Shown: positions 1 through 50,434 of the stretch, in pieces
Numbering within the stretch: position 1 is the first letter of the stretch
Layout of the letters: every line of letters begins with the position of its first letter
Assembly: GCF_024298765.1 (NCBI RefSeq)
Contig: NZ_CP101210.1
Length of the DNA: 64,000 bases
Direction: 5' to 3' (one strand)
Source of the DNA: Escherichia coli
GTDB lineage: Bacteria; Pseudomonadota; Gammaproteobacteria; Enterobacterales; Enterobacteriaceae
The notes under the pieces: model-generated
Told to the model about the DNA's origin: nothing
The model's input: the letters and a program-made list of their open reading frames with translations, nothing else
The model's database searches: none
Position numbers and translations under genes: made by a program

Positions 1-1086
1 GCCACCGATGCGCTTTATACCACAATGCTTACCGGGATGGGGGCGCGACGTCAGCCACTGATGTGGGCCATCACCACCGCCGGGTACAACATTGAGGGGC
101 CGTGCTACGACAAGCGGCGGGAAGTCATCGAGATGCTCAACGGCTCGGTGCCTAACGATGAACTGTTCGGGATCATCTATACCGTTGATGAAGGTGACGA
201 CTGGACCGACCCGCAGGTGCTGGAAAAAGCCAATCCAAATATTGGCGTGTCGGTTTATCGCGAATTTTTGTTAAGTCAGCAGCAGCGTGCGAAAAATAAC
301 GCCCGTCTGGCAAACGTCTTTAAAACGAAACACCTCAATATCTGGGTGTCGGCACGTTCGGCGTATTTCAACCTGGTGAGCTGGCAGAGCTGCGAGGATA
401 AATCACTGACCCTTGAGCAGTTCGAGGGGCAGCCGTGCATTCTGGCCTTTGACCTGGCGCGTAAGCTGGATATGAACAGCATGGCGCGACTTTATACCCG
501 CGAGATTGACGGTAAAACGCATTACTACAGTGTGGCCCCGCGCTTCTGGGTACCGTATGACACGGTGTACAGCGTCGAGAAAAATGAAGATAGACGGACA
601 GCCGAACGCTTTCAGAAATGGGTGGAAATGGGCGTCCTGACCGTTACCGATGGTGCAGAGGTGGATTATCGCTACATCCTCGAAGAGGCCAAAGCGGCGA
701 ACAAAATCAGCCCGGTCAGTGAGTCACCCATCGACCCCTTCGGGGCGACCGGGCTGTCACATGACCTTGCTGATGAAGATCTGAATCCCGTCACTATCGT
801 CCAGAACTTCGCCAATATGTCCGATCCGATGAAAGAGCTGGAAGCAGCGATTGAATCGGGACGCTTTCATCATGACGGCAATCCCATCATGACCTGGTGT
901 ATCGGCAATGTGGTCGGCAAAAACATGCCTGGTAACGATGATTTAGTGAAGCCCGTCAAGGAGCAGGCGGAAAACAAAATCGATGGTGCGGTTGCACTGA
1001 TTATGACGATCGGTCGGGCAATGCTCAAAGAACCTGGCGATTTCCTCTCATCTCTTGATCCGGACGATGATCTCTTAATTCTATGA
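1..1086 (+). CDS. Terminase large subunit, C-terminal part (5' end outside window)
   Basis: Frame of ORF 25..1086 is open back to position 1; sits immediately upstream of portal, protease and capsid genes; stop overlaps next start as ATGA. Confidence 0.75.
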
Positions 1087-1244
1087 AATCACTAATTGCT
1101 GATGTTATCGGGCTGACTGGTTTTGGCCTGCTTACGTGCGGAGTTTACCTGCAGTTTGGTATGGCTCCGGCTCTGATTTTGTCCGGTGCTTTACTGCTGG
1201 TGGGTGCACTGGTTATGGTCAGAAGGGGGACGCGTGCTGCTTGA
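1083..1244 (+). CDS. Small hydrophobic protein, 53 aa (hypothetical)
   Basis: ATG at 1083 overlaps the terminase stop (ATGA); translation [53 protein letters not shown] looks like two membrane helices; below the ORF-track size cutoff. Confidence 0.3.
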
Positions 1245-2460
1245 TGCTCTGTTCAGAAGTAAATCACTGGAGAATCCTTCCACCCCGATAACCGGGGATG
1301 CCGTTGATACTGATGGGCTGTTCCGGGCAGACGTTTATGTCAGTCCTGAAACTGCGATGAAACTGGCTGCGGTGTATTCCTGTATCTATGTCCTGTCTTC
1401 CAGCCTTGCCCAGATGCCGTTGCATGTTATGCGCAGGCACAATGGGAAGGTTGAGCCCGCACGCGATCATCCGGCGTTTTATCTGGTTCATGATGAGCCC
1501 AATACCTGGCAAACCAGTTACAAATGGCGCGAACTGAAGCAACGTCACATCCTTGGCTGGGGGAATGGGTATACCTGGGTGAAACGTAATCGTCGCGGTG
1601 AAGTCATATCTCTGGATTGCTGTATGCCGTGGGAAACGACGCTGATGAATACTGGTGGCCGATACACCTACGGTTTGTACAACGAATATGGGGCGTTTGC
1701 GATCAGCCCCGACGATATGATCCACATCCGAGCGCTGGGTAATAATCAGAAGATGGGGCTGAGTCCGATTATGCAACATGCCGAAACAATAGGCATGGGG
1801 ATGAGCGGTCAGAAGTACACAGAAAGCTTCTTCAGCGGTAATGCCCGTCCGGCGGGGATAGTATCCGTTAAAAGCGGACTCAATAAGGAAAGCTGGGGCT
1901 GGCTTAAAGAACAGTGGCAGAAGGCATCGCAGGCGTTACGCCGCCAGGAAAACAAAACCATGCTGCTGCCAGCCGATCTGGATTACAAGGCACTGACTGT
2001 GTCGCCAGTTGACGCTCAGATCATTGACATGATGAAGCTGAACCGTTCAATGATCGCCGGTATTTTCAATATTCCTGCGCACATGATTAATGACCTCGAA
2101 AAAGCCACCTTCTCCAATATTTCTGCGCAGGCGATTCAGTTTGTCCGCTACACGATGATGCCGTGGGTGACGAACTGGGAGCAGGAGCTTAACCGTCGCT
2201 TGTTTACCCGCGCTGAGTTAGCCGCCGGGTATTACGTCAGGTTCAATCTGACGGGGCTTTTACGCGGAACTCCGCAGGAGCGCGCGCAATTCTATCACTT
2301 CGCTATTACCGATGGATGGATGAGCCGTAATGAGGCCCGCGCATTTGAGGATATGAATCCGGTTGAAGGGCTGGACGAGATGCTGGTAAGCGTGAATGCT
2401 GCTAACCCGGCAGGAGATTTTAAGCCCCCAAAAAACGATGAGGGAAAAACCAATGAATGA
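1186..2460 (+). CDS. Portal protein (HK97-like family)
   Basis: 424 aa ORF between terminase and prohead protease; ORF-track start is GTG at 1186, alternative GTG at 1234 has an AGGGGG Shine-Dalgarno just upstream. Confidence 0.85.
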   Translation: MLYCWWVHWLWSEGGRVLLDALFRSKSLENPSTPITGDAVDTDGLFRADVYVSPETAMKLAAVYSCIYVLSSSLAQMPLHVMRRHNGKVEPARDHPAFYLVHDEPNTWQTSYKWRELKQRHILGWGNGYTWVKRNRRGEVISLDCCMPWETTLMNTGGRYTYGLYNEYGAFAISPDDMIHIRALGNNQKMGLSPIMQHAETIGMGMSGQKYTESFFSGNARPAGIVSVKSGLNKESWGWLKEQWQKASQALRRQENKTMLLPADLDYKALTVSPVDAQIIDMMKLNRSMIAGIFNIPAHMINDLEKATFSNISAQAIQFVRYTMMPWVTNWEQELNRRLFTRAELAAGYYVRFNLTGLLRGTPQERAQFYHFAITDGWMSRNEARAFEDMNPVEGLDEMLVSVNAANPAGDFKPPKNDEGKTNE

Positions 2461-17632: not shown

Positions 17633-17686
17633 TGCAGAAATAACGAGCAAATGGCATCATTCCTGCTTTTGTCAGGGAGATCTACC

Positions 17687-18241
17687 ATGCTTATTGGCTA
17701 TGTACGTGTGTCAACAAATGACCAGAACACAGATCTACAGCGTAATGCGCTGAACTGTGCAGGATGCGAGCTGATTTTTGAAGACAAGATAAGCGGTACA
17801 AAGTCTGAAAGGCCGGGACTGAAAAAACTGCTCAGGACATTATCGGAAGGTGACACTCTGGTTGTCTGGAAGCTGGATCGGCTGGGGCGTAGTATGCGGC
17901 ATCTGGTCATTCTGGTTGAGGAGTTGCGCGAACGTGGCGTTAATTTTCGCAGCCTGACGGATGCTATTGATACCAGCACACCGATGGGGCGTTTTTTCTT
18001 TCATGTGATGGGTGCCCTAGCTGAAATGGAACGAGAACTGATTGTTGAACGAACAAAAGCTGGACTGGAAGCTGCTCGCGCACAGGGACGAATTGGTGGA
18101 CGTCGTCCCAAACTTACACCAGAACAATGGGCGCAGGCTGGGCGATTAATTGCATCAGGCGTTCCTCGCCAGAAGGTGGCGATCATCTATGATGTTGGTA
18201 TATCGACACTGTATAAGAAGTTTTCGGTCGGAGATAAATGA
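17687..18241 (+). CDS. pin: Serine DNA invertase, Pin/Gin/Cin family
   Basis: MLIGYVRVSTNDQ active-site serine motif at N-terminus, C-terminal HTH; very close to e14 PinE as recalled; ATG at 17687 inside ORF-track 17651..18241. Confidence 0.9.
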   Translation: MLIGYVRVSTNDQNTDLQRNALNCAGCELIFEDKISGTKSERPGLKKLLRTLSEGDTLVVWKLDRLGRSMRHLVILVEELRERGVNFRSLTDAIDTSTPMGRFFFHVMGALAEMERELIVERTKAGLEAARAQGRIGGRRPKLTPEQWAQAGRLIASGVPRQKVAIIYDVGISTLYKKFSVGDK

Positions 18242-18298: not shown

Positions 18299-19117
<819 letters not shown>

Positions 19118-19478
19118 TCATTGCAAGGGCTCACAACCAGTAGTGTTGAGAAAACCATCGGAGAAATGAGGCTAAGCCTTTGAATTTACATAGTACAAAA
19201 AAGATACTTTTCCTCATAATGTGAGCTAATTTTATGTTTCGTTTGATGATTGGACCGGTCTCGAAAACCGTAGACACATAGTATGCGTTAATTTATGAAC
19301 AAACTACTTGTCTGCTGTTTTTCTGTCATTAGTCGTATATAGAATGATTCTCTATGCCTAACAAAGCATCACCAGTGCTAGATTACGTTGTAGTCACTGT
19401 TTAAATATCCAGATAAAACATTTCCTTCTGGGTTGAATGAGTGATAAAGTTTCACCCATTAGACCCCTTGGAGGAATT

Positions 19479-20912
19479 ATGTCTGAATTTGAAGTGTTGG
19501 CACAGCATCTGCTGAAGGAAGCCGAGGCGGAAGAAAAGCTGCGACAGGAAAATGATAAAAAGCTTATCGAGAAAGTGCTGGAAATCTATGATCAGAAGTA
19601 TGTGGCTGAATTACTGAGAAAAGTCGGAAAAAATGAGTGGAGCCGTGAAACCATTAACCGCTGGATTAATGGCAAGTGTTTACCAAAATCGTTGACTTCA
19701 GTAGAAGAGTCTCTTCTGCGTAAGATGCTACCAGAACCACCTGCAAACCATCCGGAATATGCTTTCCGCTTCATTGACTTATTTGCTGGAATTGGAGGGA
19801 TACGGAAAGGTTTTGAGGCCATTGGAGGCCAGTGTGTTTTTACCAGTGAATGGAATAAAGATGCTGTGCGTACATACAAGGCCAACTGGTTTAACGATGA
19901 ACAGGTGCATAAATTCAATCTCGATATTCGGGAAGTCACGCTGAGTGATAAAACCGATGTATTGGAAACGGATGCTTATGCATATATTGATGAGCATGTG
20001 CCGGATCATGATGTGCTTCTTGCGGGGTTCCCGTGCCAGCCATTTAGCCTTGCTGGTGTTAGTAAGAAAAACTCACTTGGTCGTGCGCATGGTTTTGAAT
20101 GTGAAGCACAAGGAACACTTTTTTTTGACGTGGCACGTATTATACGAGCAAAAAAACCGGCAATTTTTGTGCTGGAAAATGTCAAAAATCTGAAGAGCCA
20201 TGATAAGGGTAAAACTTTCAAAGTCATTATGGAGACCCTTGACGAGCTGGGCTACGAAGTTGCCGATGCTGCAGAAATGGGAAAAAACGATCCAAAGATT
20301 ATCGATGGGAAGCATTTTTTGCCTCAGCATCGTGAACGCATTGTTCTGGTCGGATTTAGACGAGATCTGAATATTCACAAGGGGTTTACCTTGCGTGATA
20401 TCAGTCGTTTTTATCCGGAACACCGCCCATCATTTGGTGAATTGCTGGAGCCTGTAGTCGACAGTAAATATATACTTACGCCAAAACTATGGGAGTACCT
20501 TTATAACTACGCCAAAAAGCATGCAGCCAAGGGGAATGGTTTTGGCTTTGGGTTGGTCAATCCTGAGAATAAGGAAAGCATTGCACGCACACTTTCTGCC
20601 AGATATCACAAAGACGGATCAGAAATTCTTATTGATCGTGGTTGGGATATGGCAACGGGAGAGGCTGACTTTATGAATGAGAGTAATCAGGCTCGTCGAC
20701 CACGCAGGCTGACTCCCCGAGAGTGCGCACGCCTTATGGGATTTGAAAAACCTGGAGGGAAACCATTCCGTATTCCGGTTTCAGATACTCAGTCATATCG
20801 GCAGTTCGGTAACTCAGTTGTGGTGCCAGTATTTGAAGCTGTTGCCAGACTTCTGGAACCCTATATCCTCAAAGCTGTTTCTGCTGATGCTGGTAAGACT
20901 GGGCAGCCTTGA
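19479..20912 (+). CDS. ecoRIIM: DNA cytosine-5 methyltransferase, M.EcoRII/Dcm type (predicted CCWGG)
   Basis: C5-MTase motifs [10 protein letters not shown] (I), [11 protein letters not shown] (IV), ENVKNL (VI), [10 protein letters not shown] (X); N-terminus [12 protein letters not shown] resembles M.EcoRII; 477 aa from ATG at 19479 with GGAGG RBS. Confidence 0.9.
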
Positions 20913-20918
20913 GAACAT

Positions 20919-20941
20919 CTCCCGGCCTTTTAAGCCGGGAG
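20919..20941. terminator. Bidirectional hairpin between convergent methyltransferase and endonuclease genes
   Basis: CTCCCGGC-CTTTTAA-GCCGGGAG, 8-bp stem, located in the 34-bp gap between the two stop codons. Confidence 0.5.
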
Positions 20942-20946
20942 TCAGC

Positions 20947-22161
20947 CTATGATAGTTCAGCGTAAAGCTCTATCAGCTCAGTAATGAATGCTCCGAGCGT
21001 TATTAATTCTTCTCTAACTGCTTCTGGGTATTTTTTATGTAAAGTTGATGGTACAACGAGTCTGACACCCGCATCTTTCATTTCTCGGTATTGTGCTGAA
21101 GAAACACCTTCTTGCAGTGTAAATAAATGTACCTGATGGATTTTATCTGCTTCATTCAGTATCTGACGCCAGCGATCTTTGCAGGTGGTCTTTACTGCCA
21201 GCATACGTAAGTTTTCTACAGGAAATTCAACGTTATGATATGCCTCTGCTGAAGGAAACAGGAAATCTGGTTTTTTATTACCTTCAGTAACTGCCTGAGT
21301 GGAGAAATGCCGTAGTCCGTGCTCGATAAAAAGCTTCTCTAGGTGAAGTTCAAGTGATTTGCCTGCCCTTGATTTACGTCGATTACTGACAGAGTTGGCT
21401 AATGCAATAAACTCATCTACAGAATCGAATCCTTTCTTAATAATATCAAGAACATGTAATTCCTCGACGAGTAGAAAAATATCATACTCGACACGCCGAC
21501 GGTCAATCAGTTGCTCATCTGGATCCTTGGAGTTTTTAGCATAATGGCCAGCAGCATATTGAATAATTTCGTTTCCAGAAGGAAAACGCTTCTTCCAGTC
21601 TTCAGGAATAACATATTTATGATTTACTGGAGTTTGCTGAAGAGACAATCCGCCCAAAATTTGTCCGGCAGGGCCGGAAATTAGGGTTCCAGGTATGATT
21701 TCGCCAATAGCAGACTCGATGATATCCTCTTCATCGGGATTGACGCAGACCCATATATCTACCTCGGAACAGTCAGTGTTCTGTTCGTTTAACCTGAAAG
21801 CAAGAATTGTGAGGGCTCCTGTATTTTCAGGGTTCTGTAATGGACTTCCTCTCCCCCAGCGCGTAATTCTTTTTTCGTTTCGGGTCTTACCAAAATAACG
21901 GTTGTTGTAATAAATTGCGCGTGCTTGGGTATCAGGGCAATCATGGGATGATACATGCGCAGTAAGGAAGACTGAAGGGTTCAGTTCGCGAGTATGATTG
22001 ATAGATGGAAAAAGCTTTTCAACGATATTTGAGGGGATATAAAGTCCGACCTGATGGCCACCTGTTGCGCCTGTGTCGTTTGCAGAAAGGCGTTTGATGT
22101 AGATAAAGTAATTCCCGCTTGCGATATCAAGCAGCCAGTTATGAAAAACCGACATATACAT
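20947..22161 (-). CDS. ecoRIIR: Type IIE restriction endonuclease, EcoRII-like
   Basis: 404 aa, same length as EcoRII; N-terminus MSVFHNWLLDIASGNYFIYIKRLSANDTGATGGHQVGLYIP closely matches EcoRII as recalled; convergent with the methyltransferase. Confidence 0.9.
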   Translation of the reverse strand: MYMSVFHNWLLDIASGNYFIYIKRLSANDTGATGGHQVGLYIPSNIVEKLFPSINHTRELNPSVFLTAHVSSHDCPDTQARAIYYNNRYFGKTRNEKRITRWGRGSPLQNPENTGALTILAFRLNEQNTDCSEVDIWVCVNPDEEDIIESAIGEIIPGTLISGPAGQILGGLSLQQTPVNHKYVIPEDWKKRFPSGNEIIQYAAGHYAKNSKDPDEQLIDRRRVEYDIFLLVEELHVLDIIKKGFDSVDEFIALANSVSNRRKSRAGKSLELHLEKLFIEHGLRHFSTQAVTEGNKKPDFLFPSAEAYHNVEFPVENLRMLAVKTTCKDRWRQILNEADKIHQVHLFTLQEGVSSAQYREMKDAGVRLVVPSTLHKKYPEAVREELITLGAFITELIELYAELS

Positions 22162-22389: not shown

Positions 22390-22752
22390 TGGTGGAGCTG
22401 GCGGGAGTTGAACCCGCGTCCGAAATTCCTACATCCTCGGTACTACATGCTTAGTCAGTCTTTACATTCGCTTGCCAGCTGCGGACGGACACGCCACTAA
22501 CAAACTAGCCTGATTAAGTTTTAACGCTTCAACCCCAGGCAGGGCTTCCACGCGATCTCTTTTGGGTTTGACCTCTCTTGATCCCCGTCCTAAGAGCGGA
22601 GGCTAGGGAGAGAGGGCTCTAAGCAGGTTATTAAGCTGCTAAAGCGTAGTTTTCGTCGTTTGCGACTATTTTTTGCGGCTTTTTACGAGGCCAACCGCCC
22701 CTCGGCATGCACCTTGGGTTTCGCAAATCCCGTCGAATCCAGAATCAGCCCC
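22390..22752 (-). ncRNA. ssrA: tmRNA (SsrA), 363 nt
   Basis: Reverse complement matches E. coli tmRNA from GGGGCUGAUUCUGGAUUCGACGGG to CCAGCUCCACCA; tag reading frame encodes ANDENYALAA. Confidence 0.95.
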
Positions 22753-41439: not shown

Positions 41440-42866
41440 TAATGCCGATCAGTTAAGCAACTGACTGGCTCTTTTTCGGGGCTGTGGGGTATTTCCAGGG
41501 CCTCTCCTTTACCACTCTCGGGAAGGCCCTTTCCCTTCTTGTCGGTAATTTCACAAGTTGTCCCATACTTGCAAGATCGCGCATCAGCTCCGGTATACGT
41601 CCCGGTGAAGCGCCCTGCAATGTCATCAGCATTCTCATCACCATTCCGCATGATTCTGAGAAACTCAGTTGATTCGGCCAGTAACCTTTCAGATGTTCCG
41701 CCATTTTAATCATCTGATATCTCACCAGATTATAAGCCAGTAAGACACCCCACAGCTCTTGCTCCACAAGCTCCGGCTTTTTACTTCTCAGCGTCAGCCT
41801 GCTCAGTTGCATCGTCTGTTTTATCTCCCTGTATCCCAGTTCGATTTCCCAGCGATGACTGTACAGATCCGCCATTTCTCCTCCGGGGAAGCGCATGGCG
41901 TCCGTCATCGACGTCAGCAGATGGCAGACTTTTCCTTTGCGCGTCACGGTCAGCAGGCGGGCTGTCACTTCATTTCCCAGTCCCGGCCACTTTTTTCGTG
42001 CCTGCGGGCTGGTTTTCAGCTTCACCAGATGATCGCCTTTACCCAGTTTTCTGATCTCTTCATATTGCGCTCCCTTTCTGAGAGGTATCATCCAGTGGCG
42101 GTGTTCTCCCGCCAGGCTCCAGGCATTTAACAGTCCCAGTGAGTAATAACCTTTATCCATTAACGTCAGAGTGTTATCGCCGGTTTGTTCTATAAGTTGC
42201 TCAGCAAGCTCATTTTCGCTGTTCTTCATCGTGCCGAAGGCTGCAGCCGTCAGCAGATGGCTGGTCAGTTCCATCTGGCAGACCATTTTGACCTGCGGGT
42301 AGAGCGCCGGGTTCCCGTCATGTGTCTGGCGGGGGAAGGCTGCATCGTTCTCTGGTGTATCCGGTGTGCGCCAGAACACACCATCGATGGCCAGCAGGGT
42401 CAGGCCGCACCAGTGCGGATGCGGCGTGGCGTTATGCCAGAGCTGCGCTGTTTTCGTGAACACGCGGCGGACAGCCTCACTTCCCAGGCGCTGGCGGGCC
42501 TGAATAACGGCACTGGGGGGCAACGAAGGGGCGATTGCCCGGCAGCATGATGTCCAGGCGATTCACAATCTGGTGAAGAGGTTCTTTACGCTCAAGCGCC
42601 ATGCCAACAATACACCAGACCATCATTTCGAGGGGAAGACGGCGCTTGCGTAGCGTTACAGTACCTGATTCGGCAAGGCAACGAGAGATGAGTTCGGGGT
42701 CGAGGTAATCCCCCAGAGAAGTCAGTGGGTTACGCAGAGAATCGTAACGGGATACCAGATCAAGAGCCTGTCCAATGTGCATAAAAAAATCCGGAAACAA
42801 GTGAGCGTTTCCGGATTCTTACACAGCCACTGGATCGGTCAACTGATCCTTAACTGATCGGCATTA
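41440..42866 (-). mobile_element. IS4 insertion sequence (1427 bp) with perfect 18-bp terminal inverted repeats
   Basis: TAATGCCGATCAGTTAAG at 41440..41457 and its reverse complement at 42849..42866; flanked by direct repeat CAGCTCAAGGGCTG (41426..41439 and 42867..42880). Confidence 0.85.
41453..42800 (-). pseudogene. insG: IS4 transposase, interrupted by a frameshift near 42515..42520
   Basis: Two overlapping ORFs (42477..42800 and 41453..42523) together match IS4 transposase; a six-C run on the coding strand (six G at 42515..42520) puts the N-terminal 107 aa out of frame. Confidence 0.8.
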
Positions 42867-42903
42867 CAGCTCAAGGGCTGCCGTTTTGTGTTTCAGGTTT
42901 CTG

Positions 42904-50239: not shown

Positions 50240-50316
<77 letters not shown>

Positions 50317-50358
50317 AATTTGCACGGCAAATTTGAAGAGGTTTTAACTACATGTTAT

Positions 50359-50434
50359 GGGGCTATAGCTCAGCTGGGAGAGCGCCTGCTTTGCACGCAG
50401 GAGGTCTGCGGTTCGATCCCGCATAGCTCCACCA
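50359..50434 (+). tRNA. tRNA-Ala (anticodon TGC)
   Basis: GGGGCTATAGCTCAGCTGGGAGAGCGCCTGCTTTGCACGCAGGAGGTCTGCGGTTCGATCCCGCATAGCTCCACCA. Confidence 0.95.

What the first reader, a model, noticed from the sequence alone, without database searches (positions are those of the whole stretch)
1083..1244. Unannotated 53-codon membrane-like ORF wedged between terminase and portal
An ATG at 1083 overlaps the terminase stop as ATGA (classic translational coupling) and opens a 53-codon frame encoding a strongly hydrophobic peptide with two predicted helices. It ends at 1244, overlapping the likely portal start (GTG 1186 or 1234). Small membrane peptides here are unusual in HK97-type head modules; it could be a moron or an artefact of the overlap.
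Basis: seen in the sequence. Interest (0 to 1): 0.35.

Follow-up and report, generated by a model that had tools for sequence, protein, structure and literature searches.

The report
Conserved small membrane protein beside portal
The 53-codon frame is a real, conserved phage gene for a tiny two-helix membrane protein that sits between the DNA-packaging enzyme gene and the portal gene; databases already list it as a hypothetical protein and nobody has tested its function.

Summary
The ORF at 1083-1244 is exactly as described. Its ATG overlaps the terminase (TerL) stop as ATGA. It has 53 codons and a GRAVY of 1.29. AlphaFold2 predicts two helices, and the ORF ends 11 nt inside the portal gene. 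The portal starts at GTG 1234, not 1186.

It is not an artefact. Of 168 head modules chosen by portal similarity alone, 166 carry an intact homologue in the same slot. dN/dS is 0.22-0.26 in this frame, against 0.95 and 2.7 in the other two frames. G13, G20 and G35 are invariant across gamma- and betaproteobacterial phages.

It is not a moron. It has no promoter, terminator or Shine-Dalgarno of its own, its GC matches its neighbours, and it is not patchily distributed.

It is not unannotated. RefSeq calls it WP_015364398.1, a hypothetical protein, and it matches PHROG 7105 (unknown function) over its full length.

HK97 itself and one close relative lack it, so it is an accessory of this SfV-like lineage. 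It is inherited with the portal more than with TerL, and it occurs with different tail types.

My best inference, which is untested, is a late-made inner-membrane hairpin that assists portal or packaging function. The interest is modest.

The parts
1..1086 (+). 3' part of the terminase large subunit gene (TerL). The window starts inside the gene. Stop codon TGA is at 1084-1086.
   Evidence: PHROG 9 at E=8.8e-116 and Pfam TerL_nuclease at 5.3e-35. RefSeq annotation of the identical junction.
1083..1244 (+). Small ORF of 53 codons plus a stop, a member of PHROG 7105. Predicted two-helix inner-membrane hairpin with both termini in the cytoplasm.
   Evidence: the ORF itself. (PHROG 7105, 1-52/52, E=1.4e-21). 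(WP_015364398.1). (intact in 166/168 relatives). (dN/dS 0.22-0.26). (helices). (charge distribution).
1083..1086 (+). ATGA: the start codon of the small ORF overlaps the TerL stop. This is a termination-reinitiation geometry, and there is no SD upstream.
   Evidence: ATGA or GTGA is conserved in 85/85 close relatives. The median anti-SD duplex energy upstream of the small ORF is -1.2 kcal/mol, against -10.8 for the portal.
1086..1157 (+). Helix 1 (residues 2-25). It is glycine-rich and only moderately hydrophobic. Conserved residues are D7, G10, G13, G20, Y22 and L23.
1161..1235 (+). Helix 2 (residues 27-51), the more hydrophobic of the two. Conserved residues are L31, G35, L38, L39 and A42, followed by a basic C-terminal tail (RRGTR).
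1221..1230 (+). Shine-Dalgarno of the portal gene (AGAAGGGGGA). It lies inside codons 47-49 (R-R-G) of the small ORF, so the same bases serve two purposes.
   Evidence: The Ralstonia phage shows the same arrangement.
1234..2460 (+). Portal gene with a GTG start. Its first 11 nt overlap the end of the small ORF.
   Evidence: PHROG 12 at 5.3e-134 and Pfam Phage_portal at 1.5e-98. Start resolved. RefSeq CDS at 1234..2460.

Best explanation
The ORF is a genuine late gene of an SfV-like E. coli prophage. This prophage has an HK97-type head module with an HNH endonuclease, a P27-type small terminase, TerL, portal, an S78 protease and an HK97-fold capsid protein.

**Shown**
- The ORF encodes a 53-residue protein of a conserved family (PHROG 7105).
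- The family is found only in the slot between TerL and portal, in phages of gamma- and betaproteobacteria.
- The protein sequence is under purifying selection.

**Inferred from sequence**
- The protein is a helical hairpin in the inner membrane with both termini in the cytoplasm. K or R sits at position 2 and about 2.5 K/R sit in the C-terminal tail.
- The two helices pack through a conserved face of small residues (G10/G13/G20 on helix 1; S34/G35/A42 on helix 2).
- A conserved acidic residue, D7, lies at the cytoplasmic end of helix 1.

**Inferred from gene geometry**
- The ORF has no promoter or ribosome-binding site of its own. It is therefore translated only when ribosomes finish TerL and restart at the ATGA, which means late in lytic growth and at or below TerL level.
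- Its last codons carry the portal's strong Shine-Dalgarno.

**Inferred function (the weakest step)**
- The ORF travels with the head module whatever the tail type, and it is co-inherited with the portal more than with TerL. It is dispensable in HK97 and in one natural deletion.
- I therefore think it is most likely an accessory factor of the portal or packaging step that acts at the inner membrane. For example, it could tether or nucleate the portal ring or procapsid there, by analogy with the gp40-dependent, membrane-bound portal initiator of phage T4.

My confidence that it is a real protein-coding gene is about 0.95. That it is a membrane hairpin, about 0.8. That its job concerns portal or packaging, about 0.35-0.45.
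For: **Existence and annotation.**

**Family.**
- PHROG 7105 matches over the full length at E=1.4e-21, and all 36 diverse members hit it.
- The 50%-identity library holds 41 representatives, and a profile search finds 78 clusters. Named sources include Escherichia, Citrobacter, Klebsiella, Salmonella, Morganella, Providencia, Proteus, Xenorhabdus, Arsenophonus, Neptuniibacter and Achromobacter.
- Ralstonia and Halomonas phages also carry it.

**Position.**
- All seven distant members whose genomic context I looked up lie between TerL and the portal or the gene in the portal position.
- 166 of 168 loci picked only by portal similarity have it.

**Selection.**
- dN/dS is 0.22-0.26 in frame, against 0.95 and 2.7 in the shifted frames.
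- The +1 frame has stops in 85/85 relatives and the +2 frame in 72/85.
- Variable sites by codon position are 28, 19 and 42.
- G13, G20 and G35 are invariant; D7 and G26 are conserved in at least 90% of sequences.

**Membrane hairpin.**
- GRAVY is 1.29.
- AlphaFold2 gives helices 2-25 and 27-51 at pLDDT 83.
- K/R per sequence: N-terminus 1.09, loop 0.33, C-terminus 2.51.

**Coupling.**
- ATGA or GTGA is found in 85/85 close relatives.
- The small ORF has no SD, while the portal SD is strong in 99% of junctions.
- There is no promoter-like site on the + strand.

**Link to the head module and portal.**
- The same ORF occurs with a contractile Mu-like tail and with a siphovirus tail.
- Small-protein identity regresses as 0.04 + 0.16 x TerL C-terminus + 0.65 x portal N-terminus.
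- Partial correlations are 0.72 (portal) and 0.30 (TerL).
- In 105 pairs with portal above 95% but TerL C-terminus below 80% identity, the small protein is still 86% identical.

**Precedent.** T4 has a membrane-bound portal initiator that needs a viral chaperone, gp40 (PMC9958956).
Against: - There is no experimental evidence of translation, membrane location or phenotype. No paper in the held library mentions this protein.
- HK97 assembles heads without it. One relative with a 59%-identical, intact portal has lost it cleanly. It therefore cannot be a core assembly component.
- Co-inheritance with the portal may simply reflect the 11-nt overlap and the shared SD, or a recombination hotspot at the 3' end of TerL.
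- The Morganella prophage L007 is a counter-example: its portal is 81% identical but its small protein only 36%.
- The T4 gp40 analogy rests on function only. I did not test or find any homology.
- Helix 1 is only weakly hydrophobic, so the topology is a prediction.
- Part of the C-terminal basic cluster may be conserved for the portal's SD rather than for the protein.
Confidence: 0.45

Rival explanations
1. It is a late-acting membrane effector that has nothing to do with head assembly. It could be a lysis-timing modulator or pinholin-like protein, a late superinfection or DNA-re-entry block, or a host membrane takeover factor. On this view it sits in this slot only because the slot tolerates a small coupled gene.
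For: - The architecture resembles small class II holins or pinholins: two helices, a glycine-rich and weakly hydrophobic first helix, and a short basic cytoplasmic tail (the resemblance is from my own knowledge of phage 21 S68).
- There is a weak match to PHROG 502, 'membrane protein', which PHROGs files under moron/host takeover (E=3e-5; 20 of 36 family members hit it).
- The gene is dispensable in HK97 and in L106.
- HK97 gp15 is a precedent for a small inner-membrane exclusion protein encoded inside a morphogenesis operon (PMC3594210).
Against: - The prophage already has a complete lysis cassette upstream: a lambda-family holin, a GH24 endolysin and Rz/Rz1-like genes. Relatives do too.
- The ORF is never next to an endolysin gene. 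It was between TerL and portal in every context I examined, across portals as divergent as 27% identity.
- It has no SD or promoter of its own, so it cannot be expressed from the repressed prophage as gp15-type exclusion genes are.
- It has no Pfam, NCBIfam or PADLOC match.
Confidence: 0.25
2. The ORF works mainly in cis. Translating it passes ribosomes from TerL to the portal start, or brings the mRNA to the membrane, and the peptide itself is incidental.
For: - The geometry is perfectly conserved: ATGA with TerL in 85/85 close relatives, and the portal SD and start lie inside the 3' end of the ORF.
- The small ORF lacks its own SD.
Against: - A pure spacer would not keep its amino acids. dN/dS is 0.22, and glycines and D7 are invariant from E. 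coli to Ralstonia at 54% identity, despite host GC of 52% against 66%.
- The portal has its own strong SD, so it does not need coupling.
- HK97 and L106 join TerL directly to the portal.
- Lambda fills the same slot, with the same 4-nt overlaps, with a real protein, gpW.
Confidence: 0.1
3. It is a moron: an independently transcribed gene expressed from the prophage for the benefit of the lysogen.
For: It is a small membrane protein in a structural operon, like HK97 gp15. PHROG 502 is filed in the moron/host takeover category.
Against: - There is no sigma-70-like promoter on the + strand in 600-1600. The only terminator-like hit is at the chance level and lies inside the ORF.
- The ORF has no SD.
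- Its GC is 0.47-0.52, like its neighbours.
- It is present in 166/168 related modules rather than patchily.
- All homologues I looked at are in phage head modules, and none is a free-standing bacterial gene.
Confidence: 0.04
4. It is not a gene at all, only a chance open frame in the TerL-portal spacer.
For: A 53-codon open frame has roughly an 8% chance of arising at this GC (my estimate). Hydrophobic peptides arise easily from T-rich sequence (AT skew -0.4).
Against: The ORF is conserved, the selection is frame-specific, and residues are invariant across two proteobacterial classes.
Confidence: 0.03

Closest known systems
PHROG 7105 (phage protein family, unknown function); RefSeq WP_015364398.1 'hypothetical protein'
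   Same: This is the same family, and the RefSeq entry is annotated at the same junction coordinates in a strain whose junction matches at 100% over 501 bases. The HMM match covers the full length (1-52/52, E=1.4e-21). Length and position between TerL and portal are the same.
   Different: Nothing differs. The family simply has no assigned function and no literature.
PHROG 502 'membrane protein' (filed under moron/auxiliary/host takeover)
   Same: There is a weak profile match (E=3e-5 for the window protein; 20 of 36 family members hit it). The size is similar (a 58-position profile) and both are hydrophobic.
   Different: The match is much weaker than to PHROG 7105. I could not inspect PHROG 502 members or their genomic positions. 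Low-complexity hydrophobic similarity may inflate the match.
Phage lambda gpW (gene W, between A and B)
   Same: The slot and geometry are identical. It is a small gene between TerL (A) and portal (B), with 4-nt overlaps on both sides.
   Different: gpW is a soluble 68-residue head completion protein, annotated as a head-tail adaptor. There is no sequence similarity (E=2.1). The window protein is strongly hydrophobic.
Phage T4 gp40 (viral chaperone for the membrane-bound gp20 portal initiator)
   Same: It is a possible functional analogue: a phage-encoded accessory protein that acts where the portal meets the inner membrane, and it is not a virion component (PMC9958956).
   Different: No homology was tested or found. 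T4 gene 40 is not adjacent to the portal gene (my own knowledge). HK97-type heads are not known to assemble on the membrane.
HK97 gp15 (YebO-like superinfection exclusion moron)
   Same: It is a small inner-membrane protein encoded inside a morphogenesis operon of an HK97-type phage (PMC3594210).
   Different: gp15 is an independent transcription unit expressed from the prophage. It lies in the tail operon and has bacterial homologues. The window ORF has no promoter or SD, lies in the head operon, and I saw homologues only in phage head modules. It has no Pfam hit of any kind.
Class II holins / pinholins (for example phage 21 S68)
   Same: Both have two transmembrane helices, a glycine-rich and weakly hydrophobic first helix, a short basic cytoplasmic C-terminus, and late expression.
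   Different: The window ORF is not adjacent to an endolysin gene. The prophage already has a lambda-family holin. There is no holin family match. I saw no dual-start motif.

Membership tests
PHROG 7105 | Full-length match to the family profile | tested here: met
   E=1.4e-21, residues 1-52 against profile positions 1-52 of 52. All 36 diverse homologues also match.
PHROG 7105 (as characterised here) | Gene lies between TerL and portal of an HK97-type head module | tested here: met
   Window. All seven distant homologue contexts. 166/168 portal-selected loci.
PHROG 502 'membrane protein' | Significant match to the family profile as the best family | tested here: inconclusive
   E=3e-5 at 24 bits, far below the PHROG 7105 score of 77 bits. 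20 of 36 family members hit it.
Moron | Own promoter and terminator (an independent transcription unit) | tested here: not met
   No promoter-like site on the + strand in 600-1600. One weak terminator-like site inside the ORF, at the chance level of 1.0 expected. No SD. The consensus scan is crude.
Moron | Base composition differs from neighbours, and distribution among related phages is patchy | tested here: not met
   GC is 0.47-0.52 against 0.50-0.55 for the flanks. The ORF is present in 166/168 relatives.
Moron | Expressed from the repressed prophage | not testable with these tools
   This needs RNA-seq, Ribo-seq or a tagged protein in an uninduced lysogen.
Holin / pinholin | Small protein with one or more transmembrane helices and a charged C-terminal tail | tested here: met
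   Two predicted helices and an RRGTR tail. This feature is not specific to holins.
Holin / pinholin | Encoded in the lysis cassette next to the endolysin, or matching a holin family | tested here: not met
   The lysis cassette (lambda-family holin, GH24 endolysin, Rz/Rz1-like genes) lies about 4 kb upstream. No Pfam or PHROG holin match.
Holin / pinholin | Forms lethal membrane lesions at a programmed time | not testable with these tools
   This needs expression and membrane-potential assays.
Lambda gpW-like head completion protein | Sequence or fold similarity to gpW; a soluble protein | tested here: not met
   BLASTP E=2.1. GRAVY 1.29. Only the gene slot is shared.
T4 gp40-like portal assembly chaperone | Required for assembly of a membrane-bound portal initiator | not testable with these tools
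   This is a functional analogy only. It needs genetics and fractionation.
T4 gp40-like portal assembly chaperone | Homology to gp40 | not tested
   I did not fetch the gp40 sequence. No Pfam or PDB match of any kind was found for the window protein.
Known anti-phage defence proteins (PADLOC) | Match to a defence-system model | tested here: not met
   0 families at E<=1.

The most novel reading that the evidence does not exclude
A large lineage of HK97-type phages of proteobacteria carries a dedicated two-helix inner-membrane microprotein. It is made only by ribosomes that have just finished TerL. It would recruit or nucleate the portal, or the packaging complex, or the portal mRNA itself through co-translational insertion, at the cytoplasmic membrane. 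If so, membrane-associated head initiation, so far a T4 peculiarity (gp20/gp40), would be widespread among temperate phages that are assumed to assemble heads free in the cytoplasm.
Probability: 0.2. Interest if true: 0.6.

Novelty: already known. Interest (0 to 1): 0.3.

Why it matters
If the protein does act with the portal or terminase at the membrane, it would give a simple handle on where and how HK97-type heads are initiated: a 53-residue protein that can be knocked out in an inducible E. coli or Shigella prophage. It would also assign a function to a family found in about 5% of complete E. coli genomes (255 of 5,426 carry this junction at high identity) and in many other proteobacteria.

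For annotation, two practical points follow.
- Older reference records such as SfV NC_003444 miss this gene and start the portal 48 nt too early.
- The PHROG 502 label 'moron/host takeover' should not be transferred to this family.

As it stands, this is a well-supported but uncharacterised hypothetical gene, not a new kind of system.

Tried and rejected
- **Structure and sequence searches.** Foldseek of the AlphaFold2 model against BFVD and PDB gave nothing with E<=0.001, as expected for a 53-residue hairpin. A profile search of PDB sequences gave nothing.
- **Family libraries.** Pfam, NCBIfam and PADLOC gave no meaningful hit.
- **RNA families.** Rfam on 800-1500 returned only a chance miRNA hit far below its gathering score. 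This speaks against a known RNA element there.
- **Literature.** Searches by accession, by peptide strings, by 'between the terminase ... portal ... transmembrane', by PHROG id, by SfV and by QHHSV-1 found nothing on this protein.
- **Survey of a distant portal clade.** Scanning viral contigs with the very divergent L011 portal gave no confirmed loci, so I could not survey that clade.
- **Portal start at GTG 1186.** Rejected, because it is not conserved.
- **Homology to lambda gpW.** Rejected.
- **A fused-chain AlphaFold run of small protein plus portal.** Considered but not run, because the tool returns no interface metrics.
- **Identity to strain EC1515.** The window is not identical to EC1515 over its whole length: there are indels in the tail-fibre and cargo region and an IS4 insertion. 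I therefore used its annotation only for the junction, which matches at 100% over the 501 bases compared.
Full report
**1. The observation**

- The window begins inside a terminase large subunit gene (TerL) that ends with TGA at 1084-1086.
- An ATG at 1083-1085 overlaps that stop as ATGA and opens a 53-codon frame ending with TGA at 1242-1244.
- The product is [53 protein letters not shown].
- Its GRAVY is 1.29, and it has two hydrophobic stretches, the second stronger than the first.
- AlphaFold2 on a 51-sequence alignment predicts helices 2-25 and 27-51 with a break at G26 (mean pLDDT 83).

**2. The neighbours and the portal start**

- The flanking genes are TerL (PHROG 9; Pfam TerL_nuclease) and a portal (PHROG 12; Pfam Phage_portal).
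- Among 85 close relatives, the position equivalent to 1234 is always a start codon: GTG in 47 and ATG in 38. It is always preceded by a strong Shine-Dalgarno such as AGAAGGGGGA or ATGAGGGGGAA.
- The position equivalent to 1186 is GTG in only 16 of 85. In 41 of 85 the upstream extension of the portal frame contains a stop.
- The portal therefore starts at 1234.
- It follows that the small ORF overlaps TerL by 4 nt and the portal by 11 nt, and has 147 nt to itself. It is not a by-product of two overlapping genes.

**3. What the window is**

- The junction (window 900-1400) is 100% identical to chromosomal prophages in several E. coli strains. 255 of 5,426 complete E. coli genomes carry it over at least 80% of its length.
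- The annotated neighbourhood in strain EC1515 is an SfV-like prophage. In order it carries a lambda-family holin, a GH24 endolysin, Rz/Rz1-like genes, an HNH endonuclease, a P27-family small terminase, TerL, the small ORF, the portal, an HK97-family protease, the major capsid protein and connector proteins. A Mu-like contractile tail follows, and the prophage ends next to ssrA.
- Phage SfV itself has the same junction.

**4. It is already annotated**

- RefSeq/PGAP annotates a CDS at exactly these relative coordinates as 'hypothetical protein' WP_015364398.1, and the portal at 1234-2460.
- Every full-length E. coli hit listed shows a 'hypothetical protein' under the match.
- Edwardsiella phage EPP-1, Klebsiella phage vB_VIPKPNMC05 and Escherichia phage vB_EcoS-716R3 annotate a 162-nt CDS with the same overlaps.
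- The original SfV record omits it and starts the portal at the 1186-equivalent GTG.
- The protein matches PHROG 7105 (unknown function) over its full length at E=1.4e-21. It matches PHROG 502 ('membrane protein') weakly at 3e-5.
- It has no Pfam, NCBIfam, PADLOC, PDB-sequence or Rfam match.

**5. It is a real, conserved gene**

*Unbiased survey.*
- I fetched head modules by portal similarity only. One set of 80 loci has portals 84-100% identical to the window portal. A second set of 80 has portals 57-100% identical to a Ralstonia phage portal.
- Adding the loci already in hand gave 168 loci with enough upstream sequence.
- 166 of the 168 have an ORF in the junction that matches an HMM of the family. 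In the close set the ORF is always exactly 53 codons and intact.
- The two exceptions are HK97 itself, where TerL (542-2056) abuts the portal (2056-), and L106.
- In L106 the TerL stop is followed three bases later by the portal ATG. Its portal is intact and 59% identical to the window's.

*Selection.*
- Pairwise Nei-Gojobori dN/dS over 51 unique sequences is 0.26 for the whole ORF. It is 0.22 for codons 3-45, which overlap nothing.
- The same bases read in the +1 and +2 frames give 0.95 and 2.7.
- For comparison, the last 53 TerL codons give 0.31 and portal codons 5-57 give 0.10.
- The other frames contain stops in 85/85 and 72/85 relatives.
- Variable sites by codon position are 28, 19 and 42.

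*Depth.*
- A full HMMER scan of 1.84 billion representative proteins finds 41 family representatives at E<=0.001. A profile search finds 78 clusters. They come from Enterobacterales, Oceanospirillales and Burkholderiales.
- Ralstonia and Halomonas phages also carry it.
- The E. coli and Ralstonia proteins are 54% identical although the host GC is 52% against 66%.
- Across 129 unique sequences, G20 and G35 are invariant, G13 and G26 are at 99%, D7 at 93%, L31 at 92% and G10 at 90%.

*Position.*
- All seven distant members whose contigs I looked up lie between a TerL (PF03354/PF20441) and either a Pfam-confirmed portal (PF04860, five contexts) or the gene in the portal position on short contigs without Pfam data.
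- This includes L011, whose portal is only 27% identical to the window's while its small protein is 46% identical.

**6. Anatomy of the protein**

- Charges follow the positive-inside rule for a hairpin with both ends in the cytoplasm. K/R per sequence is 1.09 at the N-terminus (K or R at position 2 in 97%), 0.33 in the loop and 2.51 in the C-terminal tail.
- The conserved small residues fall on one face of each helix. On helix 1 these are D7, G10, G13/F14, L17 and G20. On helix 2 they are L31, G35, L38 and A42.
- I read that pattern as tight helix-helix packing, either within the hairpin or between subunits. This is an inference.
- Helix 1 is glycine-rich and only moderately hydrophobic (19-residue Kyte-Doolittle means are 1.3-1.7, against up to 2.4 for helix 2).

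**7. How it is expressed (inferred from geometry)**

- In 90 unique junctions the 18 nt upstream of the small ORF pair poorly with the anti-Shine-Dalgarno. The median is -1.2 kcal/mol, and only 10% reach -6 or lower.
- The portal's upstream region pairs strongly. The median is -10.8, and 99% reach -6 or lower.
- With ATGA or GTGA in 85/85 close relatives, or a 2-nt gap in the Ralstonia phage, the small ORF should be translated by termination-reinitiation after TerL. That means only in lytic growth, and at or below TerL level.
- No sigma-70-like promoter is found on the + strand in 600-1600. The single terminator-like hit is at the chance level.
- GC is like the neighbours.
- The codons for the C-terminal R/K-G residues are the portal's Shine-Dalgarno, both in E. 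coli (AGAAGGGGGA) and in Ralstonia (CGCAAGGGGG). Conservation of that tail therefore cannot be credited to the protein alone.

**8. What it travels with**

- The same ORF occurs with a contractile Mu-like tail in the window and SfV and with a siphovirus tail in vB_EcoS-716R3. It therefore belongs to the head and packaging module, not to the tail or to injection.
- I compared 128 unique triples of TerL (last 150 aa), small protein and portal (first 150 aa).
- Small-protein identity follows the portal. The regression is S = 0.04 + 0.16T + 0.65P.
- The partial correlations are 0.72 with the portal and 0.30 with TerL.
- When the portal N-terminus is at least 85% identical, the small protein is 75-86% identical, whatever the TerL bin.
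- There are exceptions. In the Morganella prophage L007 the full-length portal is 81% identical but the small protein only 36%.
- Physical overlap could also explain the bias.

**9. Mechanism**

*Shown.* The ORF is a conserved, selected, slot-specific small protein gene.

*Inferred.* It is an inner-membrane hairpin made late through coupling to TerL.

*Best guess, at about 0.35-0.45.*
- It is an accessory factor for the portal or packaging step at the membrane.
- The precedent is T4. There the gp20 portal initiator is membrane-bound and depends on the viral chaperone gp40 (PMC9958956).
- It cannot be a core component, because HK97 and L106 do without it.

*Rivals.*
- A late membrane effector for lysis timing, exclusion or takeover (about 0.25). 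The pinholin-like architecture and the weak PHROG 502 match favour this. A complete lysis cassette elsewhere and the strict slot conservation count against it.
- A cis-acting coupler whose peptide is incidental (about 0.1). The amino-acid conservation and the portal's own strong SD contradict this.
- A moron (about 0.04). It fails the promoter, terminator, composition and patchiness tests, as these are defined in PMC3594210.
- A chance ORF (about 0.03).

**10. Comparison with known things**

- Lambda uses the same slot with the same 4-nt overlaps for gene W. gpW is soluble and unrelated.
- HK97 gp15 is a small inner-membrane exclusion protein in a morphogenesis operon, but it is an independent transcription unit expressed from the prophage.
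- No paper in the library mentions this protein.

**11. Verdict**

- The gene is already catalogued (RefSeq hypothetical protein; PHROG 7105), and it is neither a moron nor an artefact.
- Its function is unknown and untested.
- The strict conservation of a membrane microprotein between TerL and the portal is mildly intriguing and easy to test.
- I rate the novelty as already known (catalogued but uncharacterised) and the interest at about 0.3.

Noticed in passing
window 18299-22161: Cargo between the Pin-type invertase gene (17651-18241) and ssrA. It comprises a C-5 cytosine DNA methylase (19437-20912 +; Pfam DNA_methylase 4.7e-78), a convergent EcoRII-type restriction endonuclease (20947-22161 -; EcoRII-N 3.9e-61 and EcoRII-C 2.4e-71), and a LEM-3-like GIY-YIG protein (18299-19072 -). 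This roughly 4-kb stretch is absent from the otherwise similar prophage of strain EC1515.
   Followed up: partly
window ~41440-42870: A roughly 1.4-kb insertion relative to strain EC1515, between raiA and bamD. It is an IS4-type element whose transposase is split into two ORFs on the minus strand: 42477-42800 (Nterm_IS4) and 41453-42523 (DDE_Tnp_1). It is apparently frameshifted.
   Followed up: partly
window 22390-22752 (minus strand): The tmRNA gene ssrA (tag ANDENYALAA) lies just beyond the prophage end and the cargo, consistent with integration at ssrA. The rRNA operon further on carries tRNA-Ile and tRNA-Ala in its spacer (50240-50434), whereas EC1515 has tRNA-Glu there.
   Followed up: no
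window 1221-1236; L006 2643-2658: The portal's Shine-Dalgarno is encoded by the R/K-G codons of the small protein's basic C-terminal tail, both in E. coli and in a 66%-GC Ralstonia phage. The same bases serve the topology signal of one protein and the ribosome binding of the next gene.
   Followed up: partly
L106 2985-3030 (IMGVR_UViG_2895086148_000001): A natural loss of the small ORF. The TerL stop is followed three bases later by the portal ATG, and the portal N-terminus reads MKFIDSLLGR. It looks as if the small ORF's first two codons (MK) were fused in frame to the portal's second codon. The portal is otherwise intact.
   Followed up: partly
L002 (SfV NC_003444) 2289-2450: The SfV reference record does not annotate the small ORF. 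It starts the portal at the non-conserved upstream GTG (2392), 48 nt before the conserved start.
   Followed up: yes
window 900-1008: About 960 further E. coli genomes, including K-12 derivatives (DH1, MG1655p, HB101), match only the first ~109 bases of the 501-base query (window 900-1400), within an annotated terminase large subunit at 90-95% identity. Similarity ends well before the small ORF. This suggests a mosaic boundary, or a different or degraded head module, in those prophages.
   Followed up: no
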